Shown: piece after piece, positions 137 through 30,804 of the stretch
Layout of the letters: each line of letters opens with the position of its first letter
Position numbering within the stretch: position 1 is the first letter of the stretch
NCBI GenBank assembly: GCA_041660565.1
Contig: JBAZWC010000001.1
Location: forward strand, 366,481-430,480
DNA from: Patescibacteria group bacterium
Lineage (GTDB): Bacteria; Patescibacteriota; UBA1384; CAJBMM01
Direction of reading: 5' to 3'
Length of the DNA stretch: 64,000 bases
Made by a program: the position numbers and the translations under genes
Notes under the pieces: generated by a model
Databases searched by the model: none
What the model saw: the letters and a program-made list of their open reading frames with translations, nothing else
What the model was told of the DNA's origin: nothing

Positions 137-712
137 TTATTTCCCATTTTTGCCATCATTACCCTTATAATCCTTATGATATTTATCTTTCGTTGGATCG
201 TAGCCATTCTTTATTACATCTTGTAACCATTTCTCATCCTCGACAGCTTTTTTACCTTCTTCATAGCGGAGTTTGGCCAATCTTTGACTTTCTGAAATTA
301 GCCCTTGTTCCCCCACCATCACCTCAATTTTATCCATTTGATTTTTTAGCATTGTTTTTTCGCCCATGCACAGTTTGATTATTTTACTTATTTCCCCTAA
401 TGTCCCATCGCGATCCGTTACAATCCTTAACCCTCCCTTGATATCCTTTTCTAGAGCCATGCTATCCTCTAGTAATTCTAATAACGATCCGTTGGAAAAA
501 CCCAGAAATTCGTAATATTGCTTGGAATTGTTGCGCCCGTACCCTTCTGAAATGTTGCGAGTAACCGACCGTGCTGAATCTACCATGTGGCCAATGAGCC
601 GGCTGTCTTTGATGGGATGAAGGTTTGCAGCGGTAAATTGTTTTACTAATGCATATATTTCTTCACCTTGGGTGTATGTTAGCAAAGCTTTATAACCTAA
701 TGGGTTTCTCAT
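137..712 (-). CDS. Four-helix-bundle protein of the Avd / 23S rRNA intervening-sequence protein family, with a C-terminal Lys-rich extension
   Basis: NISEGYGR motif and helical pattern typical of TIGR02436/PF05635-like proteins (DGR Avd relatives). About 70 extra C-terminal residues. Confidence 0.7.
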   Translation of the reverse strand: MRNPLGYKALLTYTQGEEIYALVKQFTAANLHPIKDSRLIGHMVDSARSVTRNISEGYGRNNSKQYYEFLGFSNGSLLELLEDSMALEKDIKGGLRIVTDRDGTLGEISKIIKLCMGEKTMLKNQMDKIEVMVGEQGLISESQRLAKLRYEEGKKAVEDEKWLQDVIKNGYDPTKDKYHKDYKGNDGKNGK

Positions 713-859: not shown

Positions 860-3800
860 TTATTTAATGTTCACTGTTCCTGTTCCAATATTTATGGTTC
901 CGCCGTTAATTTGGGTGCTTTTTACCGTGCCACCAAACGTCCAGTTGGTATTATTGGTGCCATCGTGGCTGGTACCATTGTTAGCCAAAATGGCACTACC
1001 ACCACTAACCGAAGCATCGGACCGCGAAACATTAACGTACGAGACGCTCTGCGTGCCGGTAACTTTGGTTAGCCAAGTACCAGATGTGGCAGAATTGCGG
1101 AAGAAAATCATCCTACCCAAACTACCCACCCAGTTGATATTGTTCCAAGTATAAGTATCGCCACTGTGGTACTGCACCCTACAACTTGGTGTGGTTATAG
1201 CATAGGTGTTGGTGGCTGTGGCGGCGGCACCAAAAATGATGCCGGGAACAAAGCCGGTGCGTTCATCGTCCGATGCATCGGTGCCAGACGGGTTAGATAG
1301 TGTTAGATTATAAAACGCGTTTGCGCCGGTCATTGTGCCGGAAAGCGTTTGCTGCCCCACCCCGTTCATATTTATTGTACCAGAGTTGGCGGTGAAAGTA
1401 CCCGAGTTGGTATAGTTACCGGAGACGGTAAGTGGGGCGGTTGATGAGGCGGTAAATAAGCCTTGGGAAGATATGTTCAAGTTTCCAAGGTTGAGGGTAC
1501 GGTCGTTTGTTTCGTTATCAAAGGTAGTAGTCCGAATATCGTCGCTCTTACCCACGTTCATGGTTGTGGCAGAAATTACGCCGGTTCCTCCGGTAGCAGC
1601 GGTAATGGTATAATTATTAGTTACTGAAGGGTTAGAGAAAGTTAAAGTGTCAAACACCCAGTTAAGCGCGCCACTGGTTGAGCCAAAATTCTTGGAGGCC
1701 ATAACCCGATTCTCTACCGTGCTCCCCGTACCCATATTAAAAGTGCCAGATCCAGAGATAGTACCGGGGACAGTGAGATCATTGTTCCCTCCAGAAACGG
1801 TGCCGTTGTTGATGAGATCAAAAGAATTGGATGCGATAGAGAGGGTGGAGTGGTTAGAAGCTCCTCCATCGAAGCTCATGGTAGTGGCTGCAGCTACGGT
1901 AACGGTGTCATCGTTTTGCTGAGGAGAAACTGTCTTGGTGGTGTTGGTATCACCCGAGGCATCCCACACTACGAAGGAATATTGGTCTCCCACCACATAC
2001 GCAGTTGGCGAGCCACCATCAATTTTAAAACTAACATTTACTCCCGCATTGGTATCAGTAAAAGTAGAACCAACGGTAGCGTTACCAACGCTTACCTCAT
2101 CACGATAGATGGCGAAGGTAGTAGCATCGGTGGCTGAGGCACGATAGGCGTAGGGACCGGCTGATAAATCGGAGGTACTAAGATCGTAGTTGAGGTCGGT
2201 GTCTTCCGTACCGGTACCATAGTAACTATGAACCGAAGCGGACTTTTCCCAAGAGTTTGAAGCATAATCATACTTGTCTGTTTCTTCGGCTTGAGGGGTC
2301 TCCGCAACAGCTGTTGGGGTGGTATACGCTCCCCAGATTTTGGTCACACCACCCGAGCCGGCATCTTTTTTAGAAATTATTCCAGAAGAATTTGCTGATG
2401 TAATCCCGTTAATTGTTGAAGTTAGTGTTGTATTATATAAGGTTAAATAATTGGATGAAGATGAAGCCCTAAAATCGTAAGTATTAGCTCCCAAACTTCC
2501 AAAGTTTCCGTTAATAATTGAATTTCCGGACGACGATAAACTAAGCTGAAATGCATATGTATTGCTGTAGAGAGATGGGGAAACGAAAATATTGTTATTA
2601 CTTGCCCCTAAATAATATAATCCGCGATATGAGTCATGTATTGTTAAGTTATTAAATATATTTTTCCCAACACTATTACCCAAATGGATTCCTTCTAATG
2701 CATAAGAGATATTAACGTTATAAAAATAGTTATTTGTAGACGTCCCTATTGATATTGGATACGAAGTATATCCAATTAGGTTTAGGTTTGATACAAATAT
2801 TCCGTTACCATTCAAACCAAGTGCTCCACGAATAATATCACTATCATAAATTTGGTTGTTGCTTGTCAAAGTTGGCGAACTAGATGTGAAAGTTGAATTT
2901 GAAACAATGTTCCCGCGACTCTGAAGACTTACAGCATGACCACTGTAAAACAAGCATTGATCGATCAAGTTATAGCCAACCCCGGTAATTATGTATATTC
3001 CTTGTTTATACGCTTGTTGAACTGTGGTCTTGACAATTCCTTTTGAGTAGGTTGCGTTATTATTTTTACCGCCACCTAAATACATGGCGTAGTTATTTTT
3101 TTTAATCCATGTGTAATTTACTGAAACTCCTTCGTTGGCATTTGCTCCATTAACAGCTCCTGTGGCAATACCGGCATAAATGCCATTTGTCCCCCTACCT
3201 AAATTACATACATCTGCATGGTTCATCACCGTTTCAGAACCAGTAGGCGCAGAATAGTATGGGGCTTTGGTGCTGTCCACTGTTGATGTGCATGCCGTAC
3301 CTGATTGGGCAGTCAAATGCGCAAACTGTTCGATCTCATAGTGATCAGTTGCTTGTAGCCCATCCGAAATATGGGCTGTGTGGCCAGTAGCAAGAGAAGT
3401 AATTGTGCCCGGATAGGGCACTACAGAAAAAGAGTCGAACGAGGAACCACAAGCAGCATCGGCATTAATTGAAGTTCTAATTAAAAAATAATCAGAAGAG
3501 GTTTCGTCATATAGGTACCTTCCGGCTTGCTGGTTGTCAGCCGTGATAAGAGTAGTTGAGTCAGAACAAACCTTGCGTCCGCTACCAGATCCCGATACTG
3601 TTTCGGTGAAGGAAGCTGAGGCGGTGGTAGTGTAGGTAAGCTCGGTGGTGGTGTTAGAGGTAATGGGGTAGATGAGGCCTTCAGCCAGTCCTGAGCTGAT
3701 GCGTAAATATTTATTGGCTTCGGAGTTTGTAGTCCACTCCGCAGAACGAGCGGTATCGGTGAGAGTGGTTTCGGTAGCTCCGGTTGAGGCTTGATCTGCA

Positions 3801-4693
3801 TAGTCCAGGGATCCGAGCATCTGTACCTTTCCCGTTGACTCGTTTTGGATGTAGGTGTCAGAGTTGGTGTTATCTGAGTTGAGCCTTAGGATGGTGTTCT
3901 TGTTGATAATAAGGTTACCCTGTCCTGCTCCAGAGGTGAAGCCAACCTCTACGAAGCAGTTGGTACAGTTAGCAGGAGAAGCGTTGTTGTTGATGTCAAT
4001 GGTAACGGTGCTTCCAGGGGCCAAACCACTCATGGTTTGCAGAGTGGCAGTGTAGCCTGAGGCATAGGCAATCTTAGTCTCGCCATTCACTTCAAGAGAG
4101 TCACCGGTACCGTTTCCAACTGTGACAGTGCCGTAGTTAATCACTAGGGTATCGGCAGCGTTAGCAGCTGAGACTATCATAGGATCTTCGATGGTCCAGG
4201 TAGGGTTGTTCCCTGATCCGGCGTCAAAGATCACCTTATAGAAGGAGCTGGTACCGTTGAGGGTTCCTGAGAGGGAGTAGGAGCCTGAGGTGGCAGTAAA
4301 CTTGACTGTACTGGTACTGGCGGTAAAGGTACCTAAGTTACTCCAGGAGCCGGTGGTGCTAATGGTGTAGCTTCCTCCATTTAAGGTGGCGCCGCTGTCT
4401 ATAGTTATTGATGTAACAGCCGCGGTGGTAACATCTACCGTGATATCTTGCGCCGCAGCAATCTGCACGCTGTCAGCGGTGGTGGGAACTCTGCCGCACG
4501 TCCAGCTGGCAGTGCTGTTCCAGCTACCGGCCCCGCCGGCTTGAGATACACAGGCAGAAGCATGCGTCGTTTTCGCACCAAAGAATAGCCAGAGAACACC
4601 AATAGTAGCGAAAACGAAAATTCTAAGCACGAAATTCGAAGCACGAAACAAATTCTTAAATTCAAAATTAAAAATACTTAAACTTTTATTCAT
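860..4693 (-). CDS. Giant secreted surface protein (1277 aa), Thr/Ser/Gly/Asn-rich with a parallel beta-helix (pectin-lyase-like) repeat region
   Basis: N-terminal signal peptide (…TIGVLWLFFGAKTTHASA). NNxI/GNxI beta-helix-like repeats around aa 560-760. Long ORF with coding periodicity. Start codon overlaps the stop of the upstream four-helix-bundle gene. Confidence 0.75.
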   Translation of the reverse strand: MNKSLSIFNFEFKNLFRASNFVLRIFVFATIGVLWLFFGAKTTHASACVSQAGGAGSWNSTASWTCGRVPTTADSVQIAAAQDITVDVTTAAVTSITIDSGATLNGGSYTISTTGSWSNLGTFTASTSTVKFTATSGSYSLSGTLNGTSSFYKVIFDAGSGNNPTWTIEDPMIVSAANAADTLVINYGTVTVGNGTGDSLEVNGETKIAYASGYTATLQTMSGLAPGSTVTIDINNNASPANCTNCFVEVGFTSGAGQGNLIINKNTILRLNSDNTNSDTYIQNESTGKVQMLGSLDYADQASTGATETTLTDTARSAEWTTNSEANKYLRISSGLAEGLIYPITSNTTTELTYTTTASASFTETVSGSGSGRKVCSDSTTLITADNQQAGRYLYDETSSDYFLIRTSINADAACGSSFDSFSVVPYPGTITSLATGHTAHISDGLQATDHYEIEQFAHLTAQSGTACTSTVDSTKAPYYSAPTGSETVMNHADVCNLGRGTNGIYAGIATGAVNGANANEGVSVNYTWIKKNNYAMYLGGGKNNNATYSKGIVKTTVQQAYKQGIYIITGVGYNLIDQCLFYSGHAVSLQSRGNIVSNSTFTSSSPTLTSNNQIYDSDIIRGALGLNGNGIFVSNLNLIGYTSYPISIGTSTNNYFYNVNISYALEGIHLGNSVGKNIFNNLTIHDSYRGLYYLGASNNNIFVSPSLYSNTYAFQLSLSSSGNSIINGNFGSLGANTYDFRASSSSNYLTLYNTTLTSTINGITSANSSGIISKKDAGSGGVTKIWGAYTTPTAVAETPQAEETDKYDYASNSWEKSASVHSYYGTGTEDTDLNYDLSTSDLSAGPYAYRASATDATTFAIYRDEVSVGNATVGSTFTDTNAGVNVSFKIDGGSPTAYVVGDQYSFVVWDASGDTNTTKTVSPQQNDDTVTVAAATTMSFDGGASNHSTLSIASNSFDLINNGTVSGGNNDLTVPGTISGSGTFNMGTGSTVENRVMASKNFGSTSGALNWVFDTLTFSNPSVTNNYTITAATGGTGVISATTMNVGKSDDIRTTTFDNETNDRTLNLGNLNISSQGLFTASSTAPLTVSGNYTNSGTFTANSGTINMNGVGQQTLSGTMTGANAFYNLTLSNPSGTDASDDERTGFVPGIIFGAAATATNTYAITTPSCRVQYHSGDTYTWNNINWVGSLGRMIFFRNSATSGTWLTKVTGTQSVSYVNVSRSDASVSGGSAILANNGTSHDGTNNTNWTFGGTVKSTQINGGTINIGTGTVNIK

Positions 4694-5064
4694 TACTTTT
4701 CCAATTTTTGAATAATTGATCCCAAAATTAACATTAGTTCTTTAGCTTCATTTTGTAGACTTGTTTTTTGTTTATCTGATTCGGAATTTTCTTCTACATA
4801 AATTAGATTTAACCAATAGCATGTTTCTTTAGCTTCTTTTCTAGAGATTTTCATTCTCATAACAAGATCTTTCTTGCTGAGTGAATCGTTAGCTTCAAGA
4901 TAGTTTGCTCCAATAGAACCAGAAGAACGAACGACTTGTTTTCCGTCCTCAATATTTGCAATTGTTTTAGGTAAATTACGGATAAACACCCTAACATCAC
5001 GGGCAAATTTAGCCGTTCTTTCTTCTAAGTCATAAATTGGGGTCGGATTTTGGTTCATTGTCAT
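4693..5064 (-). CDS. Four-helix-bundle protein (Avd / 23S rRNA IVS protein family)
   Basis: ERTAKFARDV…VVRSSGSIGANYLEA…SKKDL…KETCYWLNL is a near-textbook TIGR02436 pattern. Its TAA stop overlaps the ATG of the giant gene (TAATG, 4691-4695). Confidence 0.78.
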   Translation of the reverse strand: MTMNQNPTPIYDLEERTAKFARDVRVFIRNLPKTIANIEDGKQVVRSSGSIGANYLEANDSLSKKDLVMRMKISRKEAKETCYWLNLIYVEENSESDKQKTSLQNEAKELMLILGSIIQKLEK

Positions 5065-5078
5065 TTCTTGTTTTTAAT

Positions 5079-6155
5079 TTAAAATTTATGTGCTTTTAAT
5101 TTGTTTCGAATTTGGTGCTTCGTGCTTAGTGCTTTTCTAAACAGATGTTTTATGCCATTCCAAATACTTCGTCTAAATCTGATTATCGCAAAACAAACCA
5201 GTACTATCGCCCCCATCAACCACCACGGTAGAATCCAGATCACGCGCTCCGAATACATTGCCGGGAACCCGTTGACGGAAAAGATAGTTAGCTTGGCGGT
5301 GTAGCGGCCAAACATCAGACCGGAACCTCGCCATTTTGTGCTATACGAACCGGTGTTGTCGGGGTATAGCATTTTGCCGCTCGAACTGATCGCCGTAATA
5401 CCAACCTCATTATTCTTGTAGTTGTAAAATGTAACGTTTCCACTTGGACGAATGGCGGTGGTAGTTGGATTGGAAATGGTGGCGGACAACTTGAGCGTTG
5501 GCGTAAGCGCAACTCGACTGAGCGAGAAATTAGTGATACTTGGAGTAACAGACGCTACGGTTTGGTTTGGATTATAAACCGTTAGGCGAATGAATGCCGC
5601 GTCACCCACACCAAACTGCATCGCTCCATAATAACTACCGGGCTTAGCTGATTTTGGCACATACACAGAATAATTGACTTCGCCTTTTTGACTAGCGTTG
5701 ATAGTAATTTTGGGATTTGAAACAGTTATATAAGGAAGAGTTTCCGATTTATTAGCTTGAATAGTGTTGGTGCTATTTTCTGAAGCTAATTTTAGATCAC
5801 CGGATGCTTGGTCTGGTGCGGCGCCTGTAACAGTAGCGTTTAGATTTACCGTCGAAGTGGTTTGGTTGATAATGCGCACAACTTGATTTTGAAAGCCACC
5901 TTGTGCAAGCGAGATTTCAGCAGTAGTGGGATTTAAGAAAAGCGGCTGCGTAGATGCATGGGCTGATCCGGTTAAGATGGCGAAACCGACAAATATTCCG
6001 ATGGTAACCACCACAAAGGAACACAAGGGATCATGATGGATAATGGGGGAAGACAAAGTAGCCCTAGTTATCCTTCGGGCAGCTCTTATAATCCTTAGCC
6101 GTCCTTTGGTAAGAAGTTTAAAAATTAAAAATTGGGATTTGAGATTTATTTTCAT
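5079..6155 (-). CDS. Cell-surface protein with N-terminal signal/anchor and C-terminal transmembrane helix (DUF916/DUF3324-like architecture)
   Basis: Hydrophobic N-terminal segment, beta-rich Asn/Thr-rich ectodomain, C-terminal TM (ILPWWLMGAIVLVCFAIIRF) and basic tail. Lies between the two giant genes. Confidence 0.55.
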   Translation of the reverse strand: MKINLKSQFLIFKLLTKGRLRIIRAARRITRATLSSPIIHHDPLCSFVVVTIGIFVGFAILTGSAHASTQPLFLNPTTAEISLAQGGFQNQVVRIINQTTSTVNLNATVTGAAPDQASGDLKLASENSTNTIQANKSETLPYITVSNPKITINASQKGEVNYSVYVPKSAKPGSYYGAMQFGVGDAAFIRLTVYNPNQTVASVTPSITNFSLSRVALTPTLKLSATISNPTTTAIRPSGNVTFYNYKNNEVGITAISSSGKMLYPDNTGSYSTKWRGSGLMFGRYTAKLTIFSVNGFPAMYSERVIWILPWWLMGAIVLVCFAIIRFRRSIWNGIKHLFRKALSTKHQIRNKLKAHKF

Positions 6156-6160
6156 TTTAC

Positions 6161-9100
6161 CTAATTCAAGCTAATGTTTATCAACACAGATGGTAGGATA
6201 TTTGATGCGTTGGTTTTGACTGCGCCAAAGCAAGAGTTAACCGCACCAATTTCAGTTGAATCAACCGCGCCCGCCGTGGTGGAGGTAACAGCGCAAGTGT
6301 TACGAACAGCCCCAAAGATGGCTTTTACATAAGCTTGGCCGTTAGTCATCATTATTGCTTGGCCACTGGCCGAATTTCCAACCACAATTACTCCGGCGGC
6401 ACCGGTCATAGACGCTACGCCGGTTTGCTTGACTTGGTTGTCTGCCGAGGTATCATTAATAACTGCGCTGGCAGGCTCTGTGGCGGCTGCGGTGTTGGTA
6501 TAGACGAATGTGCCACCGATAAAGAACCTTGTATCGACTATGTTTGATACGGTGTTAATCCCCGTTGTCGCTTTGGCGATAACTACTGTTGGATAGTTAG
6601 CGTTGTACGCTGGCAAATCTACCGACTTATGCACTTCACAAGCTTGTCCGGTGGTTGAAGCGGTACCACTTGCAGTAAGGTAAACGTATTCAATAGACGA
6701 AGCATCCAACGCAAGGCTTGAATCAGAATTTACAACACAACGGGAAATCTTGGTTGGGCTGGAAATGCTGTCAGAGGTATAAACTGAGCCAGCGGCAATT
6801 TTAATATTAAGCCCAGCGTCTATGCTTGGTTTTAAGGCACTGGTGGCTGAAGTTAAATCTCCCGCTACTGTTCCAGAGTTTGGATCTACACCGACAATCG
6901 GCACACCCGGCAAGCTGTTGCCTGAGGCTATTTTACCTGTTACATCAACAGTAAACACCGATACTGAAGAGCTATTCTTTATGGATAGCAGATCACCAGT
7001 TTGATCTTGCGCTGCGCTGATTGCCAAGGCGGTATCGGCCGCATTTGCCGATCTAATTACCACCGATCCAGCGTTTACCGTACCAGCAGTTATGGTGGTT
7101 GCATTTAGCGTGGTAGTGGTAATTACCGTTGCCATGTTGTTTATCTGAGATTGTAGACTGGCGGTAGTAGTTAATAACGAATTAATCTTTGGCGTGGCGT
7201 CGGTGATAAAGGCATCGTGAGATTGCAATATTGGCAAGTAAAGTACGGCCAGTTGGTTGTATTTAACACCGGTTATCTCGCCTGCAGCATTTCTAATTAC
7301 CAAATCTGGCACGTGCTGGTCTGTTTCTTCAGCAATCAACCCAAAATCTTGTAATCCCGGGGTAGATGAATTTTGATTCCAGGTAAAGTTAACCGGCCGT
7401 AAGGATAAAATTGCACTGGAATCAATTACCTTGGTGGTGATATCGGTTTTATACTTTAGCGACGACGATTGCGGAATAATTGAGGTGCCATTTAAGACCA
7501 ATGCGGTTCCGGCTCCAGCTGCGGCCAGAGTAGCGTCTAATGTCCCTGTAATTGTGGCATTGCCGGTAACAGTTAACCCGGCTGCGGCTGTTAATTCTGT
7601 AACGTTATAAGTTACACCGGCAGTGTTAAGATTGACGATATCAGTACCGGTTCCAACTGTGATTGTCTTTCCACCGGTTGAAGTGATGGATGAGTTCTCG
7701 GCAAAAACCAGGTTGGACGCGTTACCAGACGCTCCTAATAATAACTGATTAGTACCGGTGCCTTGCAAAATCAAATTACCGCTTGAACTAGATATTATGC
7801 CATCAGTTCCATCGTGTGTTAACTGAACGTAGTCAGTATTATCCGAAGCATAAACCCGCAAGTAGTTTTGGGCGCTTGCCATATTGATGTTGGCGATTCC
7901 GGTTGACGCCTGTAAATTAACATCGCCGCCTTGCGCAATTAGCGAATATGCCGCAGCTCCGGTTGAGGCAGTGCCTGAATATGTACCGCCTGACAACGTC
8001 CCACCTGAAATTGTGGCGCCATTAATCGTACCGGCTGCGGTGATAACACCGGCTGAGGAAACTGCGAATTTTGACACACCATTCAATTGCGCATCGATAA
8101 GATTACCAGTAAATCCGGTAGCGGCGTTGACACCGATGCCAGTACCGGCAGTAGACCATCCTGTTGAAGTGGTACCGGCGGGTTCGACTAGTAGTTGAGG
8201 CTTGGTAGTGGTAGCATCGCCCCCCGAGAACCAAGTGCCCGTCAACAACGCGGCGGGAGTAGAAGCGGCACCGTTCGATTGGCTGATTAGCTGTCCGGCT
8301 GCAATCTGCAACGCATAGTTTGCCGTAGTTGCACCGGATGCGGTTAAGTAAGCGGCAACGTTAGTGCCGGAAGTTGCGTTGGTGTTTGTAACACTGGAAT
8401 AAAGTCCGTAAGCAGTGAAGGCGGTATTTGCGTTAGCCCCAGAAACGGCGATGTTAAGCGCTTTGCCTGATCCACTAGCTGTACCGGCGGTGGATGTAAC
8501 CGCCAAGTTAGCCAGATTGCCCGAAGTAAGCGAGCTTGACGAAACATCAACCAAATTTCCAGTGGTAAGAGAGTTGCCTTGAACAGACATCCCCGCAGAT
8601 GTGCCGGTTTGAGTGGTATTAGATGATGCCACCGCCAAGTTGCCGGTAATTGATTGGTTACCAACGATAGTGCTTCCGGTTGAGGTACTGGCACCAGCAG
8701 CTGAGATAGAGAATTTGGAAACGCTGTTTACTTGTAAGTCTAATAGATTTGCCGATTGTCCGGTGGCAGCGTTAACCAGTAAAGCTGTTGACGTGTTGCC
8801 GGAGTTGTTTACGACCAAACCAGTGGCTGCGGTAAGAGTAGCAACATTGTAGGTAACGGTTGCGACATTCAAATTAAATACATCAGCGCCATTTCCAACA
8901 GTAATAGTCTTACCACCTCCGTCGGCTCCACCTAGCGTTGAGCTTTCTTGGAATAACAAGTTTACCGCGGTACCGGTGCTACCTAAAATAAATTGGCTAG
9001 TGCCAGACCCGGTAAGTTGGAGCTCACCGGAGCTACTCGAAATAACTGCATTAGTACCATCATGAGTTAACTCAGCGTATTTTGTACCGGCCGAATCATA

Positions 9101-12100
9101 AACACGTAGGTAGTTTTGTACTCCGGAAGTATTAATCGCCACAATACCGGTGGTTGGTTGCAAGGCAAGGTTAGTGGCAGCTGGGGTAACGATGGTGCCA
9201 ATTGATAACACATCGCCAGCAGTGGCAGTGGATATTGTAGTACCACTCCTGGACCAATATCCTACCGATCCGGTGCTAGACGCCACTAGAGTGCCGGCAA
9301 TAGTTAAATTACCCGCAGAATCAAGTTTAAATATTGACACTCCACCAACCTGCCAATTTGCCAAGTCTGCCGCAGAACCGGCTCCGCTTCCCGGAGCATT
9401 CATGCCAAAATAAGTACCACCATTTGCAGCAGCATTTCCACCAACTATGGCGCTACCAACCTGAATTACTGACGCCGTAGATGATGCAGCCGGCACCGTG
9501 GATACAACCAACGAAGTACCAGAGACTTGATTAAACGTACCGGTTGACGCGGTCAATACTCCACCGGTGATAGTGGCGGTGCCATCGGTAAGTGTACCAC
9601 CTTGAATAGTGCCGGTGGCGGTTACGGACGCGCCCGAAACTCCACCAGTAGCGCTAAACGATGCCGCAGAAACCGCTCCAGAGAACGATCCGGTGGTACC
9701 ACCTGCGATAGATCCGGTATTAATAATTCCTGTAGAATTTAGATTCAATCCGCCAGCTGTAACTGTGACTCCACCAGCGGTAACCGCAAGACCGCCAGCA
9801 GTTATCCCAATTCCTCCACTGGTGACTGTAAGCAACCCGGTAAAGTTAGAGGTGCCGTTGACATCAAATTTGTATGCTCCAGGTGCGGCACCAACCCCAA
9901 TATTCCCACCGTCTGTGCCCAAAATAATATTGCCAGTGCTTACATCACCAAGTGTGATTGTACCGGTGCCTTTGGCATTAATGGTAAGGTTTTCATTGGC
10001 GGCAGATGAAATCGTCGAAATATCAGCTCCGGATCCTGCCGCTTTGGCGGTAATCTTAATTCCGGTTGCCGCGCTGGCCGCTGAGGAATCAACCTGTAGC
10101 GAGTAATACGTTGAAGTAGTGGACGGTGCCACTATTAACGCGGTTGCCGAAGCATCTGAAGTGATAAGTGAACCCACTTTAAGAGTAGCGTAGGTTGATG
10201 CGCCAAGCCTTGAATACAAATCAAACCTGTCTGAGGCACCGGTCCATTGCAACGCTGCATAAGTACTTTTAACCGGGCCAAGATAAAACTGAATCTGCTG
10301 GCTATCAACATTGTCGGTAGCTTGATTGGTATCAATTGTAAACGACAATGACGATGTTCCATTCACGTTTGTTGACCCAATGTTTAGATTGTCAAAATAA
10401 CCGGTGTCAAAGTGCGCGGAGGACGATCCTAAATTAATCCCTGCCCCAGTTGGCACGATACTGGAATTCGTAGCAATGTTTGACCCGGATAATGTTAGAG
10501 CGGTCGACCCACCCACACTTAAAGTGGCGCCGGTTACTGAACCAAGGGATACGATGTTACCGGCAGAATCGATGGTGGCCACGTTACTACCGTTACCTTG
10601 AACCTGAAACTTTCCCGTAGATCCAGTAGCGATGTTGACACTAAAGTTGGCATCGGTAGCGGTATTCGACAAAACAACAGTAAGATCCCTGGCATCGGAA
10701 GTGGTGATTGTATTACCGTTTTCGTATGCTGCTTGCAATGTGGCACCAGAACCTACCCCTGCGCAAGACCCAAACACCGGAGTACCTGACCCATCTGCGA
10801 CTAAACATTGCCCGGATACACCAGCCGCCGTTACGCTAACATTGCCTGTACCATTACCGTACATAACCCCTTTACTGGTAATAGTGGTTAGCCCTGTGCC
10901 GCCATGCTGAACATCAATTGCCGAGCCTTGCCAACTACCAGATGTAATTGGCGATCCGAAAGCAAAACCCGCTCCTGCGCCTGTAGCCGTAAAGGTAGTC
11001 AGCCCATTTGCCGCTACCGTGGTTGTGTAATAGTTGCTGTTATCATACTTAACTGTTAATTGTGGTGCGGTGGTTGAGGTAATAGTAACTGGCACCGAGA
11101 AATCACCGCCCGAGCTGCTACCGATAAACGCGCCTGCAATATTAACATTTCCGTCTTTATCTACCTTGAATTTAGATACTCCATTGCCTTGAAGATTGAT
11201 AAAGTCAGCTGCCGATCCGGCACCAGATGCGGGAGCATTTACACTGATATACGTACCTCCGTTGGCTGCCGCATTGCCGCCAACTAAGGCATTGCCAATT
11301 TGGATGACCGAAGATGTGGCCGATGCAGCGGGGAGAGTAGAAACCACCATTGAATTACCTGAAACTTGATTCAAATTGAGAGAAGTGGCGGTGATGGCAC
11401 CACCCGTAATTGTCGCTGTTCCATCAGTCAAAGTACCGCCCTGAACCGTACCTGTTGCGGTTACCGATGCACCGGAAATTCCACCAGTAGAAGTAAGCGA
11501 ACCGACAGTGACCGGCTTAGCAAACGTAAACGCTGCCCCCGCTCCCGCCCCATTAAATGTGGTAGCGCCATTGGCAGCAACCGAAGCGGTAAAGTAGTTT
11601 GACGCATCATATCCCACAGTCAATTGTGGAGTAGTAGTAGAAGTTACAGATATTGGAGAAGTAAACTCTCCTGAGGAAGACCCGCCTGACATGACCGTCC
11701 CCGATATGGTAAGGTTTCCACTCGAATCAACTTTAAAGATCGAAGTGCCACCAACTTGTAAATTTATCATGTCACCGACATAACCAGCCGTACTGTTGAC
11801 TCCAAGGTAAGTGCCACTGGCGTTGCCACCAGTGATTGGCGATCCAAGCTGTAGTAATGAGGCGGCATTTGAGGCAACCGGCGCGCTCGAAATTGACACG
11901 GAACCACTAGTGTTACTGTAAATGACGCTGCTTGCACCAGTGCCCGGCTCCATATTCTGCAACTTGTCCGAGTTGATAGCACTGGCAACCGTGCCCAACT
12001 GACGGCGCGGAACTAATTCCGGGTCGGTCCCAATACGAATACCGATAAATAGGTTGTTCGATGAAAAGTCGAGCGAGGATGAAAATGCGGTAGATGATCC

Positions 12101-12604
12101 CAGCAATGTGTACAAAATACCGTTTTTGGCTGCAATAGTTTTAGTTTCAGTCCATAGAGCAGTATCGGAATTGGATGGATACGGATCAGCTGTGGTGCGA
12201 TCGGTGGCGTAAATGCTGTAACGCACGGTGTAATTGCCATCGTCAATAGGAGTTCGGGTGCTAGGTTGAATAACGCGTAAAGTAAGAGGGATCTGACGTG
12301 CCGTAGCCGCTTGCACTTTTGTTGTAACAGGTAAATATGCCATGTTGGACAAAAGCATCGTCAGAATAATGGCGGCTATCCCAACAACCCCTCCGGGCGT
12401 ATGCCCTACGGGCTGGAGCCTAATCACCCTTACAGCCCTTACGACCCCCCTTGTATTTCCACCTAAGGATGAGCAAAGGATCGCAAGGGATTGGCAAAGG
12501 GAGACAAAAGAGAAACCAACGCTTACGCGACCTTCTCGATTATGAGCAGGCTCTACACGTTTTGACCAGCGTGCAGATAGGTTTATTAACTTAGGAAATC
12601 TCAA
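6161..12604 (-). CDS. Giant fibrous surface protein (2147 aa), Gly/Thr/Ser/Ala-rich, with an embedded phage tail-fibre intramolecular chaperone (peptidase S74-like) domain and intragenic repeats
   Basis: SSLKYKTDITTKVIDSSAILSLRPVNFTW…DFGLIAEETDQHVPDLVIRNAAGEITGVKYNQLAVLYLPILQ (about 7200-7470) matches the endosialidase-chaperone (S74) pattern. Two families of roughly 120-aa internal repeats. TTG start with an AGAGGGGAG Shine-Dalgarno 6 nt upstream and a TTACAT-17-TATAAT promoter. Long basic-then-hydrophobic N-terminus resembles an extended signal peptide. Confidence 0.8.
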   Translation of the reverse strand: MRFPKLINLSARWSKRVEPAHNREGRVSVGFSFVSLCQSLAILCSSLGGNTRGVVRAVRVIRLQPVGHTPGGVVGIAAIILTMLLSNMAYLPVTTKVQAATARQIPLTLRVIQPSTRTPIDDGNYTVRYSIYATDRTTADPYPSNSDTALWTETKTIAAKNGILYTLLGSSTAFSSSLDFSSNNLFIGIRIGTDPELVPRRQLGTVASAINSDKLQNMEPGTGASSVIYSNTSGSVSISSAPVASNAASLLQLGSPITGGNASGTYLGVNSTAGYVGDMINLQVGGTSIFKVDSSGNLTISGTVMSGGSSSGEFTSPISVTSTTTPQLTVGYDASNYFTASVAANGATTFNGAGAGAAFTFAKPVTVGSLTSTGGISGASVTATGTVQGGTLTDGTATITGGAITATSLNLNQVSGNSMVVSTLPAASATSSVIQIGNALVGGNAAANGGTYISVNAPASGAGSAADFINLQGNGVSKFKVDKDGNVNIAGAFIGSSSGGDFSVPVTITSTTAPQLTVKYDNSNYYTTTVAANGLTTFTATGAGAGFAFGSPITSGSWQGSAIDVQHGGTGLTTITSKGVMYGNGTGNVSVTAAGVSGQCLVADGSGTPVFGSCAGVGSGATLQAAYENGNTITTSDARDLTVVLSNTATDANFSVNIATGSTGKFQVQGNGSNVATIDSAGNIVSLGSVTGATLSVGGSTALTLSGSNIATNSSIVPTGAGINLGSSSAHFDTGYFDNLNIGSTNVNGTSSLSFTIDTNQATDNVDSQQIQFYLGPVKSTYAALQWTGASDRFDLYSRLGASTYATLKVGSLITSDASATALIVAPSTTSTYYSLQVDSSAASAATGIKITAKAAGSGADISTISSAANENLTINAKGTGTITLGDVSTGNIILGTDGGNIGVGAAPGAYKFDVNGTSNFTGLLTVTSGGIGITAGGLAVTAGGVTVTAGGLNLNSTGIINTGSIAGGTTGSFSGAVSAASFSATGGVSGASVTATGTIQGGTLTDGTATITGGVLTASTGTFNQVSGTSLVVSTVPAASSTASVIQVGSAIVGGNAAANGGTYFGMNAPGSGAGSAADLANWQVGGVSIFKLDSAGNLTIAGTLVASSTGSVGYWSRSGTTISTATAGDVLSIGTIVTPAATNLALQPTTGIVAINTSGVQNYLRVYDSAGTKYAELTHDGTNAVISSSSGELQLTGSGTSQFILGSTGTAVNLLFQESSTLGGADGGGKTITVGNGADVFNLNVATVTYNVATLTAATGLVVNNSGNTSTALLVNAATGQSANLLDLQVNSVSKFSISAAGASTSTGSTIVGNQSITGNLAVASSNTTQTGTSAGMSVQGNSLTTGNLVDVSSSSLTSGNLANLAVTSTAGTASGSGKALNIAVSGANANTAFTAYGLYSSVTNTNATSGTNVAAYLTASGATTANYALQIAAGQLISQSNGAASTPAALLTGTWFSGGDATTTKPQLLVEPAGTTSTGWSTAGTGIGVNAATGFTGNLIDAQLNGVSKFAVSSAGVITAAGTINGATISGGTLSGGTYSGTASTGAAAYSLIAQGGDVNLQASTGIANINMASAQNYLRVYASDNTDYVQLTHDGTDGIISSSSGNLILQGTGTNQLLLGASGNASNLVFAENSSITSTGGKTITVGTGTDIVNLNTAGVTYNVTELTAAAGLTVTGNATITGTLDATLAAAGAGTALVLNGTSIIPQSSSLKYKTDITTKVIDSSAILSLRPVNFTWNQNSSTPGLQDFGLIAEETDQHVPDLVIRNAAGEITGVKYNQLAVLYLPILQSHDAFITDATPKINSLLTTTASLQSQINNMATVITTTTLNATTITAGTVNAGSVVIRSANAADTALAISAAQDQTGDLLSIKNSSSVSVFTVDVTGKIASGNSLPGVPIVGVDPNSGTVAGDLTSATSALKPSIDAGLNIKIAAGSVYTSDSISSPTKISRCVVNSDSSLALDASSIEYVYLTASGTASTTGQACEVHKSVDLPAYNANYPTVVIAKATTGINTVSNIVDTRFFIGGTFVYTNTAAATEPASAVINDTSADNQVKQTGVASMTGAAGVIVVGNSASGQAIMMTNGQAYVKAIFGAVRNTCAVTSTTAGAVDSTEIGAVNSCFGAVKTNASNILPSVLINISLN

Positions 12605-12637
12605 ATGGTTCTCCCCTCTTATGAGACTTACTAGTTA

Positions 12638-12666
12638 ATTATATATAATCCAGCTAGATAATGTAA
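12638..12666 (-). promoter_or_regulatory. Sigma-70-type promoter (TTACAT-17-TATAAT) for the giant gene
   Basis: Minus-strand -35 box at 12661-12666 and -10 box at 12638-12643, about 35 nt upstream of the TTG start. Confidence 0.5.
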
Positions 12667-12861
12667 GAGCATTTTTGCGCTTAAATTGAGCACAAATATC
12701 GCGCAATAATTTGCGCAAAAGGAATGGATCGGTTTATTTGAACAAAATATAACGTTTTTGAGCCTGTCAATACCAGTTATCCACAGGTAGTCGGCAGCAC
12801 ACGGCTTAATTTGAAATTGTTTCTTGTTCTGCTATGATAAAATCACTGAACGAGAAAACAT

Positions 12862-13897: not shown

Positions 13898-13985
13898 GGA
13901 CTGTTAGGGTTGTTAGGGAAGTTAGGGCAGTTGGGAAAACCATTAACACCCCCAACCACCCCTAACACCCCTAATTCCCCTTATA
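13898..13985. repeat. TTAGGG-repeat / CCCTAA-repeat imperfect palindrome (G4-capable on both strands) downstream of a four-helix-bundle gene
   Basis: ctgttagggttgttagggaagttagggcagttggg-aaaaccattaacaccc-ccaaccacccctaacacccctaattcccc. Confidence 0.6.
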
Positions 13986-14507
13986 CTTTTGGTTTTTCCT
14001 TTCATTAAACAGTTTTTCACTGTAGCCACCTTCGTTTTTGAATTTTTCTTCCAGACTTGTAATTTGTTTACCCAACAGAAATGTAGTCTGGTTTATAAAT
14101 GTTATCAGCATATTTGCGGCAATTTTAGGGTCACTGGGAAGATCGGGAGTATTAAGGTGACCTAGGTCTACCCAAACTGCCCTAAACTCCCTAAATCCCC
14201 TTACAATTTCATGGTCTTTCCCCAACAGTTCTAGGTTCCTTTGGCGTAAAAAATCTTGATAATCTAACAACAGTTCTTCCTGTGACGCTTTGGCAACCCC
14301 AGTTAGTTTGATATACATTTTCAGTGATTTTTCCACAGAGCCCTCGGCAATGTTTTGTCTGCCACTTCGAGCAGCTTGAATCATTTGCTCTACTAATCTA
14401 CCATATTCTTTACCAGCCAAAAATTTCTGGCAAAAAATTACCGTTAAATCGTATACAATTGTTGCCATTTTAAATGAAGCTAAATTTTTGTAGCCTGATT
14501 GGGGCAT
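13971..14507 (-). CDS. Four-helix-bundle protein (Avd / 23S rRNA IVS protein family) with C-terminal extension
   Basis: …AARSGRQNIAEGSVEKS…EELLLDYQDFLRQRNLELLGKD. Conserved core of about 110 aa. The C-terminal roughly 65 aa overlaps a copy of the GGG/CCC repeat (14140-14200) and may be a read-through. Confidence 0.7.
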   Translation of the reverse strand: MPQSGYKNLASFKMATIVYDLTVIFCQKFLAGKEYGRLVEQMIQAARSGRQNIAEGSVEKSLKMYIKLTGVAKASQEELLLDYQDFLRQRNLELLGKDHEIVRGFREFRAVWVDLGHLNTPDLPSDPKIAANMLITFINQTTFLLGKQITSLEEKFKNEGGYSEKLFNERKNQKYKGN

Positions 14508-27122: not shown

Positions 27123-27514
27123 GGGGCTGTATTAGATTCGACAGGCCGTCCACATTCACCCTTGCATAACGAGACGCTCACTCACTCGTAAAACGCGAGC
27201 AAAAAACAATAACTGCCAACAGTTTTGTTAGCAAAGTCAAAGGTGCTTTTGCATCTATGTCCTTTGCGCCAGCTTTCGCCTAAAACCGAAAGCCGTTTGC
27301 TTTCTTCTTCGTTGATGAAGAAAGGCCAAGCGTCATATTATCAACGCGCCAAAGTGTAGATTCATTCTGTAAACTTTGAAAGATACTGAATGTGCTGGGA
27401 TAACTAACTTGGAGTGCTCATTATGTTAGACCAAAAGAAATTTGAACACCTAATTATGTAGAAAAGATGAATGTACCGGTTTGGACAGGAGTGCAACTCT
27501 CCTCAGCTCCACCA
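27123..27514 (+). ncRNA. ssrA: tmRNA (SsrA), one-piece. tRNA-like ends GGGGCUG…UCCACCA. Predicted tag ORF ANSFVSKVKGAFASMSFAPAFA*
   Basis: 5' ggggctgtattagattcgacagg and 3' ggacaggagtgcaactctcctcagctccacca closely parallel E. coli ssrA. Resume codon GCC follows aataact, and the frame ends gct ttc gcc taa. Confidence 0.85.
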
Positions 27515-27604: not shown

Positions 27605-27952
27605 TTGAAAAACGTTTGGATTAGTACTCTTAGCAACAAAAATGAACCAGAAATGGTTCTTTTTTGTTATAATAATATTATGTATTATGTTTATATTTTA
27701 TTAAGTGATAAAGATGACATGCTGTATTTTGGTAGTACACCAAATTTACAGGAAAGAATCGCAAAACATGACGCTGGATTTGTTAAAGCAACGCAAAACA
27801 GGCGACCACTTAAATTATTATACTACGAGGCATATTCATCAAAAATTGATGCGCTAAAAAGAGAGAAGTATTTTAAGGGAGGGAAAGGCCATAACGACCT
27901 AAAAGTGCAATTTGAGAATACCTTGCTAAAAAATAATTATATATTTCTCTAA
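27605..27952 (+). CDS. GIY-YIG nuclease-domain protein (UPF0213-like small endonuclease)
   Basis: YYVYILLSDKDDMLYFGSTPNLQERIAKHDAG…REKYFKGGKG. The track start is TTG. A more likely start is ATG at 27653 or 27680 (possibly leaderless after a TATAAT at 27667). Confidence 0.75.
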   Translation: MKNVWISTLSNKNEPEMVLFCYNNIMYYVYILLSDKDDMLYFGSTPNLQERIAKHDAGFVKATQNRRPLKLLYYEAYSSKIDALKREKYFKGGKGHNDLKVQFENTLLKNNYIFL

Positions 27953-30546: not shown

Positions 30547-30804
30547 TGCTTGGCTCCTGTGTGGTTTGATACAACTGAGCGGGGTCGTTTTGTCTCTGCT
30601 GGGGGCATACGACCACAATGTACGTCACCTGGCTTGGCTGGACTAATATCGATTAGCCATCACCTCCTTTAGGAGTTGCGCAAGCCCGACTCCTTTTTGA
30701 TTGCGATACGACTGAACTTGTCGAACCGCCAGCATATCAACAGTTGGCGACTTGCGCGGGCTACAGGGTACCCACATTATGTGGTTATCGGCTTATGCGC
30801 CAAC

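What the first reader, a model, noticed from the sequence alone, without database searches (positions are those of the whole stretch)
7200..7470. Phage tail-fibre intramolecular-chaperone (peptidase S74-like) domain embedded about 350 aa before the C-terminus of the 2147-aa protein
Residues about 1713-1800 (SSLKYKTDITTKVIDSSAILSLRPVNFTW…DFGLIAEETDQHVPDLVIRNAAGEITGVKYNQLAVLYLPILQ) match the endosialidase-chaperone/S74 signature. That includes an S-x4-K dyad-like spacing and the GxIAQE-like core. In phage tail spikes this domain is C-terminal and self-cleaves after assisting trimerisation. Here it is internal and followed by a further roughly 350-aa beta-rich region. That suggests a processed, trimeric, fibre-like cell-surface appendage of possible phage ancestry, perhaps used for host or prey attachment.
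Basis: partly seen in the sequence, partly recalled or inferred. Interest (0 to 1): 0.7.

Follow-up and report, generated by a model that had tools for sequence, protein, structure and literature searches.

The report
Self-cleaving phage-type domain inside bacterial fibre
A 2147-residue surface-fibre protein of an ultrasmall (Patescibacteria/Saccharibacteria-like) bacterium carries a genuine phage-type self-cleaving "assembly chaperone" domain in an unusual place: in front of a second phage-like trimer-type end domain rather than at the very end, so the protein is probably cut in two after it assembles.

Summary
Residues 1714-1796 of the ORF at 6161-12604 (-) match Pfam PF13884 just above its gathering score. 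They keep every invariant position of the family (Ser1714, Lys1719, GLIAEE). With 43 relatives, residues 1691-1848 fold at pLDDT 91 into strands plus a long terminal helix. A family profile hits the solved chaperone domains of S16 gp37, a T5-like L-shaped fibre and, weakly, MyRF.

The gene is cellular, not prophage. NCBI names it 'tail fiber domain-containing protein [Patescibacteria group bacterium]'. It has an N-terminal signal/anchor, and it shares gene order with a Saccharibacteria MAG whose counterpart lacks the domain.

In 88 of 88 viral copies the domain is terminal. Among the window domain's closest relatives in metagenome proteins, about 18% are internal, and those keep Ser/Lys.

Most likely the domain trimerises the chains and cuts between Ser1713 and Ser1714. 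Cleavage, trimer state and host attachment are untested. This is a new variant of a known kind, of moderate interest.

The parts
6161..12604 (-). Giant ORF of 2147 aa starting at TTG (stop codon at 6161-6163). It encodes an exported fibre protein.
   Evidence: ORF list and translation. The N-terminus aligns with the N-termini of homologues P0010 and P0012. The identical 2147-aa product is on record in a Logan assembly, and a 2065-aa version is NCBI MFA6082137.1.
12611..12667 (-). Likely expression signals. A promoter-like site (CTTACA, 18 nt, TATAAT) lies at 12667-12638. A Shine-Dalgarno sequence GAGGGGAG lies at 12618-12611, 6 nt before the TTG.
   Evidence: Sequence read and consensus scan. 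Consensus matches only; function was not tested.
12323..12409 (-). Hydrophobic segment, residues 66-94, followed by VQA|ATA. This is a signal peptide or an N-terminal membrane anchor.
   Evidence: Kyte-Doolittle scan. All family members have an N-terminal hydrophobic segment, and none has a C-terminal membrane segment.
11930..12322 (-). Conserved N-terminal 'base' domain, residues 95-225.
   Evidence: Local jackhmmer search. The domain is shared by fibres that end in the C-terminal unit (P0010, P0012, P0014-16, P0020) and by 18 fibres that end in a terminal S74 domain.
7538..11929 (-). Gly/Ala/Ser/Thr-rich shaft, residues 226-1689, with internal repeats. Module A is at 224-370, 418-558 and 1019-1112. 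Module B is at 1081-1265 and 1502-1679.
   Evidence: BLAST of 120-aa chunks against the whole protein.
7466..7534 (-). Short beta stalk that travels with the S74 module, residues 1691-1713 (AGAGTALVLNGTSIIPQSS). The scissile bond is predicted after Ser1713.
   Evidence: The same G-x-G-T-A-L...SS segment precedes the Ser in other S74 proteins (sequences). AF2 predicts two strands here. Position 1713 is Ser, Thr or Ala in 124 of 137 relatives.
7217..7465 (-). S74 intramolecular-chaperone core, residues 1714-1796. Ser1714 is at 7463-7465, Lys1719 at 7448-7450 and GLIAEE at 7325-7342.
   Evidence: Pfam hit. Column conservation. Family profiles hit 6f45 at E 4.2e-10, 8jov at 9.2e-06, 8hqz at 4.1e-05 and MyRF 7dc3 at 0.017. 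AF2 mean pLDDT is 91.3.
7070..7261 (-). Long C-terminal helix of the S74 module, residues 1782-1845. It contains a heptad pattern at I1807, L1810, T1814, L1817, I1821, M1824 and I1828, which suggests a trimerising coiled coil.
   Evidence: AF2 helix at model residues 92-155. Heptad positions read. The role of this helix in MyRF and T5 pb1 is described in PMC8326128 and PMC4690869. The trimer state is inferred.
6164..7069 (-). Conserved C-terminal unit, residues about 1846-2147. It comprises a short fibre module, the SLPGVPIVGVDPNSG motif (starts at 1897), DTRFF (starts at 2024) and four invariant Cys (1956, 1989, 2104, 2125). Its core has a beta-tulip fold.
5079..6155 (-). Next gene, 5 bp downstream: a 358-aa protein with an N-terminal signal and a C-terminal membrane segment, and a weak WxLIP_PGBD match. 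It is probably co-transcribed.
   Evidence: A similar 343-aa WxLIP-like gene sits near the homologous giant gene in L001.
860..5064 (-). Two more tightly packed genes on the same strand: a 123-aa 23S_rRNA_IVP four-helix protein (4693-5064) and a 1277-aa secreted beta-rich protein (860-4693) with a weak G8 match.

Best explanation
The ORF encodes an exported fibre of a Saccharibacteria-like Patescibacterium, tethered or secreted through its N-terminus. Residues 1691-1845 are a complete S74-type intramolecular chaperone/auto-processing module. It consists of a short beta stalk, the Ser1714-Lys1719 pair, a small alpha/beta core and a terminal helix with heptad periodicity.

The module lies between the last shaft repeat and a roughly 300-residue end unit. 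That unit caps about 20 related giant fibres that have no S74 domain. The protein therefore looks like a recombinant carrying two alternative C-terminal end modules in tandem.

Proposed mechanism:
1. After export, three chains associate at their C-terminal ends through the S74 coiled coil and the beta-tulip end unit.
2. This sets the register for folding of the upstream three-chain shaft.
3. Once the trimer is formed, Ser1714, activated by Lys1719, cuts the Ser1713-Ser1714 bond.
4. The result is a shaft ending at residue 1713, plus a separate 434-residue trimeric fragment made of the chaperone and the end unit. That fragment is shed or stays loosely bound.

Shown here: the domain identity, the conserved catalytic residues, the internal position, the cellular context, the fold of the end unit and the modular distribution. 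Inferred: the trimer state, the cleavage, the fate of the fragments and any role in attachment.
For: Domain identity:
- Pfam PF13884 match above its gathering score.
- All invariant columns are kept.
- Family profiles hit solved chaperone domains: 6f45 at E 4.2e-10, 8jov at 9.2e-06, 8hqz at 4.1e-05 and MyRF 7dc3 at 0.017.
- AF2 gives pLDDT 91.3, with strands plus a long terminal helix and a heptad pattern.

Cleavage chemistry and site, by analogy:
- MyRF is cut at P586|S587, and S587A or K592A abolishes cleavage. These residues are equivalent to S911 and K916 of endoNF (PMC8326128).
- T5 pb1 is cut at T1263|S1264, with Lys1269 as partner (PMC4690869).
- Internal S74 copies in other proteins keep Ser and Lys wherever those columns are aligned, in 23 of the 28 other internal copies.

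Cellular, exported protein:
- N-terminal hydrophobic segment.
- Neighbours include ClpB, exonuclease VII, a sigma factor and tmRNA.
- No PHROG match to any tail-fibre family (one marginal hit to an unknown-function family).
- The gene order ClpB, cupredoxin, giant gene is shared with Saccharibacteria MAG locus L002, whose giant protein P0010 lacks S74.

End unit:
- It is conserved at the C-terminus of 14 or more giant proteins, none of which has S74.

Modularity: the N-terminal base domain is shared by fibres that end in S74 and fibres that end in the end unit.
Against: - No experiment or trimer model was possible.
- In a monomer AF2 run with a shallow alignment, the S74 part had pLDDT below 50.
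- In endoNF and T5 pb1, cleavage is proposed to depend on an Arg from the preceding triple beta-helix acting as a folding sensor. No equivalent residue could be identified here.
- If the end unit is the functional tip of this fibre family, cutting it off looks wasteful.
- The Pfam score is only 1.7 bits above the threshold.
Confidence: 0.6

Rival explanations
1. The S74 module is kept only as an internal trimerisation and register node and does not cut. The fibre stays in one piece, with the conserved end unit as its distal functional tip.
For: - The end unit is the conserved terminus of the family and would otherwise be lost.
- The sequence continues after the S74 helix as a further fibre module, as it does in P0082.
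- The folding-sensor Arg described for T5 pb1 and endoNF was not identified here.
Against: - Ser1714 and Lys1719, which matter only for catalysis, are kept here. They are also kept in all 23 other internal copies where those columns are aligned.
- MyRF cleaves without contacts to its stalk.
Confidence: 0.2
2. The S74 domain acts as a release device, like the self-cleaving domains in front of C-terminal cargo in polymorphic toxins, or like MyRF. Its purpose would be to free the 434-residue C-terminal trimer as a diffusible or transferable factor, or to let the cell let go of a bound partner.
For: - Other internal S74 proteins carry varied C-terminal domains after the module, including Ig-like and PKD domains and coiled coils.
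- All 88 viral copies are terminal, whereas about 18% of the window domain's closest relatives in metagenome proteins are internal. Internal placement is therefore a non-viral habit that may serve a different purpose.
- MyRF sets a precedent for release by an internal ICA domain.
Against: - The end unit has no enzyme or toxin signature in Pfam or NCBIfam, and no immunity-like partner is evident.
- Its fold is that of structural trimer-forming phage proteins.
- The same unit sits on relatives that have no cleavage module.
Confidence: 0.12
3. It is a phage or prophage tail-fibre gene, or a recent phage-derived insertion, rather than a cellular surface protein.
For: - The S74 module and the beta-tulip fold are both typical of phage particles.
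- NCBI names the protein 'tail fiber domain-containing protein'.
Against: - No phage gene was found among the ORFs scanned across roughly the first 42 kb of the window.
- There is no PHROG match to any tail-fibre family (one marginal hit to an unknown-function family).
- An N-terminal signal/anchor is present.
- Gene order is shared with a related cellular genome.
- There is no GC anomaly across the module.
- Proteins with the same N-terminal base domain lie on chromosome-sized contigs of several phyla.
Confidence: 0.04
4. The match is a chance or compositional hit in a low-complexity Gly/Ser/Thr-rich protein.
For: - The Pfam score is marginal (23.7 against 22 bits).
- A single-sequence search of PDB found nothing.
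Against: - There are thousands of significant relatives.
- All invariant residues are kept.
- A family profile hits solved domains at E 4.2e-10.
- AF2 gives a confident model.
Confidence: 0.01

Closest known systems
C-terminal intramolecular chaperone domains of phage tailspikes and tail fibres (Pfam PF13884 / MEROPS S74): K1F endosialidase, T5 pb1, S16 gp37 (6f45)
   Same: - The sequence family is the same.
- The Ser-x4-Lys pair sits at the N-terminal edge and the G-L-I-A-E-E core is present.
- The domain ends in a helix with heptad periodicity.
- It is preceded by a beta-structured shaft.
   Different: - In phages the domain is the last thing in the protein: 88 of 88 viral copies have at most 80 residues after the core. 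Here 351 residues follow.
- The host protein is a cellular, signal-bearing fibre.
- No phage genes are nearby.
MYRF (myelin regulatory factor) ICA domain
   Same: - Both are internal S74/ICA domains whose trimerisation-dependent self-cleavage splits a membrane-tethered protein into two parts.
- The C-terminal coiled coil drives trimerisation (PMC8326128).
   Different: - MYRF has a transmembrane helix after the domain and releases its N-terminal part.
- Here the only hydrophobic anchor is N-terminal, so the C-terminal part would be released.
- Sequence similarity to MyRF is weak (E 0.017 for the family profile).
Bacterial 'tail fiber domain-containing' / 'Peptidase S74 domain-containing' proteins with the same N-terminal base domain (for example Zixibacteria MBU8934171.1, WOR-1 OGC12372.1, Marinilabiliaceae MEE4115884.1)
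   Same: - They share a signal peptide, the homologous N-terminal base domain, a shaft and an S74 domain.
- They lie on chromosomal contigs.
   Different: - Those proteins are 443-966 aa long and end with the S74 domain.
- The window protein is 2147 aa long and continues into the conserved end unit.
- In the paper searches run here, no paper linked S74 domains to cellular Patescibacteria/CPR fibre proteins.
Giant Saccharibacteria/Patescibacteria fibres that end in the same C-terminal unit (P0010, P0012, P0014-P0021; loci L001-L006)
   Same: - The N-terminal base domain, the shaft modules and the end unit (34-50% identity) are shared.
- P0010 is the positional counterpart: ClpB, cupredoxin, giant gene.
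   Different: None of them has an S74 domain. The window protein is the only one among 1.84 billion representatives that combines both.
Beta-tulip trimers: phage capsid decoration/cement proteins (HFTV1, Pam3, TW1, lambda gpD), the phi29 gp8.5 base, and the phi29 gp12 C-terminal auto-chaperone (3gqh; Pfam Peptidase_G2)
   Different: - There is no detectable sequence similarity, and no PF11962 match.
- The unit is about 300 residues long and has extra beta structure and four conserved Cys.
- Capsid binding is irrelevant here.
- Any auto-chaperone or self-cleaving activity of the unit is pure inference.

Membership tests
Peptidase S74 / intramolecular chaperone auto-processing (ICA/IMC) domain | Significant match to the family model (Pfam PF13884 at or above its gathering score) | tested here: met
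   23.7 bits against a cut-off of 22, E 5.8e-05, model positions 1-57 of 58. The margin is narrow, but 4123 relatives in the exhaustive search support the match.
Peptidase S74 / intramolecular chaperone auto-processing (ICA/IMC) domain | Catalytic Ser and Lys five residues apart at the N-terminal edge of the domain | tested here: met
   Ser1714 and Lys1719 are present. These columns are 144/144 Ser and 146/146 Lys in relatives. They align with the SDRRIK motif of 6f45. The roles of these residues are taken from PMC8326128 and PMC4690869.
Peptidase S74 / intramolecular chaperone auto-processing (ICA/IMC) domain | Conserved core, including the G-[LF]-I-A-[EQ]-E motif and the aromatic and Pro positions | tested here: met
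   G1755, L1756, I1757, A1758, E1759, E1760, L1735, P1737, F1740 and Y1782 all carry the majority residue of their column.
Peptidase S74 / intramolecular chaperone auto-processing (ICA/IMC) domain | Alpha/beta body followed by a C-terminal helix that forms a trimeric coiled coil | tested here: inconclusive
   The AF2 monomer (pLDDT 91.3) shows helix 39-43, strands 48-51 and 62-65, helix 68-74, strands 79-81 and 87-90, then helix 92-155. A heptad pattern runs from I1807 to I1828.
Peptidase S74 / intramolecular chaperone auto-processing (ICA/IMC) domain | Autoproteolysis just N-terminal to the Ser after trimer formation | not testable with these tools
   This needs protein expression with S1714A and K1719A controls, or proteomics.
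Phage tail fibre / tailspike (structural virion protein) | Encoded within a phage or prophage structural module | tested here: not met
   Neighbours are cellular genes. There is no PHROG match to any tail-fibre family (one marginal hit to an unknown-function family). Gene order is shared with a Saccharibacteria MAG.
Phage tail fibre / tailspike (structural virion protein) | S74 domain at the extreme C-terminus | tested here: not met
   351 residues follow the core here, against at most 80 in all 88 viral copies.
MYRF-type membrane-bound factor | Internal ICA domain followed by a transmembrane helix, so that the N-terminal part is released | tested here: not met
   The ICA domain is internal, but there is no hydrophobic segment after it. 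The only such segments lie at residues 27-47 and 66-94.
phi29 gp12-type auto-chaperone (Pfam PF11962 Peptidase_G2) for the C-terminal unit | Sequence match to the family model | tested here: not met
   The Pfam scan at E<=1 returned only PF13884.
phi29 gp12-type auto-chaperone (Pfam PF11962 Peptidase_G2) for the C-terminal unit | Fold similarity to the gp12 C-terminal fragment | tested here: met
Beta-tulip decoration-protein fold for the C-terminal unit | Structural match to solved decoration or cement proteins | tested here: met

The most novel reading that the evidence does not exclude
A bacterium uses an internal S74 domain as a programmed break point, a mirror image of MYRF. The fibre would assemble as a trimer on the cell surface and then cut itself. 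That would shed a 434-residue trimeric beta-tulip 'head', either as a soluble or transferable factor or as a way to detach from a bound host cell. Tandem or internal S74 units, such as the three in P0022, would then mark a wider, unstudied class of self-severing bacterial surface fibres.
Probability: 0.15. Interest if true: 0.7.

Novelty: new variant of a known kind. Interest (0 to 1): 0.45.

Why it matters
Cultivated Patescibacteria live attached to other microbes, and so far mainly type IV pili have been tied to that attachment (abstracts listed). This locus shows that a Saccharibacteria-like genome also encodes giant exported fibres built from phage-style parts: an S74 self-cleaving chaperone and a beta-tulip end unit.

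These parts are swapped between fibres that share one N-terminal base domain. If the internal S74 domain cuts, it would be a bacterial counterpart of the MYRF mechanism, and a simple, testable example of self-processing in a surface appendage of an uncultured lineage.

Practically, the result gives a precise site to test (Ser1713|Ser1714, with S1714A and K1719A controls). It also corrects the start codon.

Tried and rejected
- A single-sequence phmmer search of residues 1672-2147 against PDB found nothing. Profiles were needed.
- NCBIfam gave no useful hit for the giant protein or its two neighbours.
- PHROGs gave no tail-fibre hit.
- An exact look-up of the window's ClpB protein found no record.
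- Two self-BLAST attempts to find internal repeats returned nothing. Cutting the protein into chunks worked.
- The word-indexed homology search was swamped by low-complexity candidates and found only 8 and then 3 proteins. The exhaustive representative search was the informative one.
- The first AF2 run (residues 1691-2147, 36 sequences) left the S74 part below pLDDT 50. A deeper S74-only alignment fixed this, but no fold search was left to use on that model.
- The afdb50 fold library was unavailable.
- Alignment A5 was too divergent for a pattern scan of viral contigs, so A1 was used instead.
- A chance match and a prophage origin were both rejected (see the rival explanations).
- A compositional sign of recent foreign insertion was sought and not found: GC is 0.42-0.47 across the module, like its flanks.
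- The polymorphic-toxin paper (PMC3482391) does not mention S74 or the endosialidase chaperone.
- The text-term search of the Saccharibacteria genetics preprint (PMC10187176) for 'fiber', 'adhesin', 'trimer' and related words found no mention of fibre proteins.
Full report
**1. What is at the coordinates**

Window 7200-7470 on the minus strand encodes residues 1712-1802 of one very long ORF, 6161-12604, 2147 codons from a TTG.

The TTG is very likely the real start:
- A Shine-Dalgarno sequence GAGGGGAG lies 6 nt upstream, and a promoter-like site (CTTACA, 18 nt, TATAAT) lies further up.
- The first residues (RFPKLINLSARWSKR) align with the N-termini of homologues P0012 and P0010.
- A Logan assembly records the same 2147-residue product. 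The NCBI record MFA6082137.1 starts at Met83.

**2.

Pfam PF13884 (Peptidase_S74, 'chaperone of endosialidase') matches residues 1714-1769 over model positions 1-57 of 58. The E-value is 5.8e-05 and the score 23.7 bits, against a gathering score of 22. The margin is small, but other evidence is strong.

- An exhaustive HMMER search of 1.84 billion cluster representatives with residues 1701-2147 gave 4123 hits at E<=1e-3, with S74-only relatives down to about 1e-16.
- In a local alignment of about 150 of these domains, the window keeps every invariant column: Ser1714 (144/144), Lys1719 (146/146), Gly1755 (154/154), Ala1758, Glu1759, Leu1735, Pro1737, Phe1740 and Tyr1782. Position 1713, just before the catalytic Ser, is Ser, the commonest residue there.
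- Profiles built from the window and its relatives hit solved chaperone domains. These are Salmonella phage S16 gp37 (6f45, E 4.2e-10), 8jov (9.2e-06), a T5-like L-shaped fibre (8hqz, 4.1e-05) and, weakly, MyRF (7dc3, 0.017). The SSLKYK motif aligns with the SDRRIK motif of 6f45.
- With a 43-sequence alignment, AlphaFold2 predicts residues 1691-1848 at mean pLDDT 91.3. The model has two short strands before the Ser, then helix, strand, strand, helix, strand, strand, then a long terminal helix.
- That helix carries a heptad pattern: I1807, L1810, T1814, L1817, I1821, M1824, I1828.

According to the MyRF and T5 pb1 structure papers, the Ser-Lys pair is the catalytic centre. The cut falls just before the Ser (P586|S587 in MyRF, T1263|S1264 in pb1), and the terminal coiled coil drives trimerisation (PMC8326128; PMC4690869). 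By analogy, the predicted cut here is between Ser1713 and Ser1714.

**3. Context: a cellular gene of a Patescibacterium**

NCBI names the protein 'MAG: tail fiber domain-containing protein [Patescibacteria group bacterium]', on a 516-kb contig.

The window carries ordinary cellular genes:
- ClpB, exonuclease VII, an ECF-type sigma factor and a PD-(D/E)XK nuclease.
- tmRNA and two tRNAs.
- A DEAD-box helicase, an ABC transporter and others.

It also carries three 23S_rRNA_IVP four-helix genes. The giant protein and its neighbours have no PHROG match to any tail-fibre family.

The gene order ClpB, cupredoxin-like gene, giant gene is shared with a Candidatus Saccharibacteria MAG (locus L002). ClpB is 65% identical there and the cupredoxin 53%. 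The giant protein at that position, P0010, has no S74 domain.

GC content across the S74 module (0.42-0.47) matches its flanks.

The giant gene is followed after 5 bp by a 358-residue protein with a signal and a C-terminal membrane segment and a weak WxLIP_PGBD match. After that come a small IVP gene and a 1277-residue secreted beta-rich protein. A WxLIP-like gene also lies near the homologous giant gene in L001.

**4. Anatomy of the protein**

- Residues 66-94 are hydrophobic and end in VQA|ATA. A weaker hydrophobic stretch lies at 27-47. No hydrophobic segment occurs later in the protein.
- Residues 95-225 form a conserved 'base' domain.
- Residues 226-1689 are a Gly/Ala/Ser/Thr-rich shaft with repeats. 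Module A is at 224-370, 418-558 and 1019-1112. Module B is at 1081-1265 and 1502-1679.
- The S74 module, with its own roughly 20-residue stalk (AGAGTALVLNGTSIIPQSS), follows copy 2 of module B. A similar stalk precedes the Ser in other S74 proteins. After copy 1 of module B, by contrast, the shaft simply continues.
- Residues about 1846-2147 form a conserved end unit.

**5. The 'further 350 residues'**

The end unit recurs at 34-50% identity at the extreme C-terminus of 14 other giant proteins (890-3748 aa) in the representative library. It also recurs in five genome loci, four from Candidatus Saccharibacteria MAGs and one from a Patescibacterium. None of these proteins has an S74 domain. The window protein is the only one in the library that combines the two.

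The unit has strongly conserved motifs (SLPGVPIVGVDPNSG starts at 1897, DTRFF starts at 2024) and four invariant Cys. Those four are among only eight Cys in the whole protein.

Foldseek against PDB and BFVD agrees. From general knowledge, these beta-tulip proteins are homotrimers; I did not check this here.

The outputs do not say which residues of the unit form the beta-tulip.

**6. Modularity**

The N-terminal base domain is shared by three groups:
- fibres that end in the end unit (P0010, P0012, P0014-16, P0020);
- 18 shorter fibres (443-966 aa) that end in a terminal S74 domain;
- three proteins with an internal S74 domain (the window protein, P0035 and P0075).

Named members of the terminal-S74 group lie on large contigs of Zixibacteria, WOR-1 and Marinilabiliaceae. 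Their records call them 'tail fiber domain-containing' or 'Peptidase S74 domain-containing' proteins.

So S74 and the end unit behave as alternative C-terminal ends on one kind of exported fibre, and the window protein carries both in tandem. This distribution, together with the fold match to the phi29 gp12 fragment, suggests that the end unit may also be an assembly or trimerisation module. That is inference only.

**7. How unusual is an internal S74 domain?**

In 80 IMG/VR loci, all 88 complete S74 cores in closed ORFs have at most 80 residues after them.

Among the closest relatives in the metagenome library, 117 of 152 domains are terminal, 27 have more than 150 residues after the core, and 15 have more than 250. 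The tails vary: Ig-like and PKD domains, coiled coils and unknown regions. One Chthoniobacterales protein (P0022) has three S74 units in tandem. Of the 28 other internal copies, 23 keep Ser and Lys. In the other five those columns are unaligned, and four of the five are short P0076 repeats that also diverge from the family core.

One caveat applies. The two samples were chosen differently, one by pattern scan and one by HMMER ranking with a query that included the tail.

Internal placement is thus rare or absent in viral contigs but recurrent elsewhere. MYRF is the studied precedent.

**8. Most likely mechanism (confidence about 0.6)**

1. After export, three chains associate at their C-terminal ends through the S74 coiled coil and the end unit.
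2. This sets the register for the upstream shaft.
3. Ser1714, activated by Lys1719, then cuts the Ser1713-Ser1714 bond.
4. The cut leaves a shaft tethered by, or secreted through, its N-terminus and ending at residue 1713, plus a 434-residue trimeric fragment.

Domain identity is shown (confidence about 0.95). Export is indicated by the sequence. Trimer state, cleavage and the fate of the fragments are inferred.

Rival explanations:
- A non-cutting register node (0.2).
- A release device for the C-terminal fragment (0.12).
- A prophage gene (0.04).
- A chance match (0.01).

**9. Verdict**

Automated annotation already recognises the domain. S74-bearing cellular fibres are widespread in sequence databases, and internal ICA domains are known from MYRF, so this is not a new kind of system.

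What is new is the combination. A Saccharibacteria-like exported giant fibre has an S74 module inserted ahead of a conserved, phage-like beta-tulip end unit. This combination is unique in the library searched, and the positional counterpart in a related genome lacks the insertion.

In the paper searches run here, no paper linked S74 domains to cellular Patescibacteria/CPR fibre proteins.

Interest is moderate, at 0.45.

Noticed in passing
window 12356-12604 (-): The NCBI gene call (MFA6082137.1, 2065 aa) starts at Met83. This cuts off the N-terminal region and part of the hydrophobic signal/anchor. The TTG at 12604 has a strong Shine-Dalgarno sequence, and its product aligns with the N-termini of homologues, so the deposited start is probably wrong.
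   Followed up: yes
window 5079-6155 (-); L001 1742-2773: A gene for a 340-360-aa protein with a signal and a C-terminal membrane segment, plus a weak WxLIP_PGBD match, lies next to the giant fibre gene in the window and in a homologous locus. The two proteins are 21% identical over 329 aa. It may be a conserved surface partner.
   Followed up: partly
window 137-712, 4693-5064, 13971-14507 (all -): Three genes for 23S_rRNA_IVP-type four-helix-bundle proteins are interspersed around the fibre operon. One also follows the homologous giant gene in L001.
   Followed up: no
window 28124-28753 and 29092-29724 (-); 30046-30618 and 30805-31308 (-): Two pairs of paralogous small secreted proteins (starting MRKHLVLLAAL... 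and MKRLT.LFVA.CALMSLSV...) have no Pfam match. They lie in a GC-rich stretch (0.52-0.55) where long antisense ORFs overlap them.
   Followed up: no
window 27605-27952 (+), next to tmRNA at 27123-27514: A 115-aa ORF just after the tmRNA gene has a sequence reminiscent of GIY-YIG nucleases (YYVYILLSDKDDMLYFGSTPNLQERIAKH). This was judged by eye only, and no family search was run.
   Followed up: no
protein P0022 (HEY2713247.1, Chthoniobacterales MAG, 1014 aa): This protein has three tandem units, each made of head repeats, an S74 domain and a coiled coil. The two internal S74 copies keep Ser and Lys, and the third was detected but not inspected. It looks like a polyprotein that could cut itself into three fibres.
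   Followed up: partly
protein P0082 (Logan, 1138 aa): This is the closest internal-S74 relative of the window module. It starts with a phage-integrase SAM-like domain, then a membrane segment, then a fibre with an internal S74 domain and about 460 more residues. This is an odd cytoplasmic head on an exported fibre.
   Followed up: no
proteins P0017, P0018, P0019, P0021 and P0012: Other fibres with the same end unit carry very different shaft inserts. Some have repeats that look propeller-like by eye, and P0012 has a NosD/Beta_helix domain. The end unit and the base domain are therefore the constant parts and the middle is freely exchanged.
   Followed up: partly
window 7884-8198 (+) and 9609-10106 (+): ORFs of 104-165 aa lie antisense inside the giant gene. 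They have 'homologues' antisense to the giant genes of L001 and L002. They are most simply explained as by-products of the conserved, compositionally biased sense strand, not as genes.
   Followed up: partly
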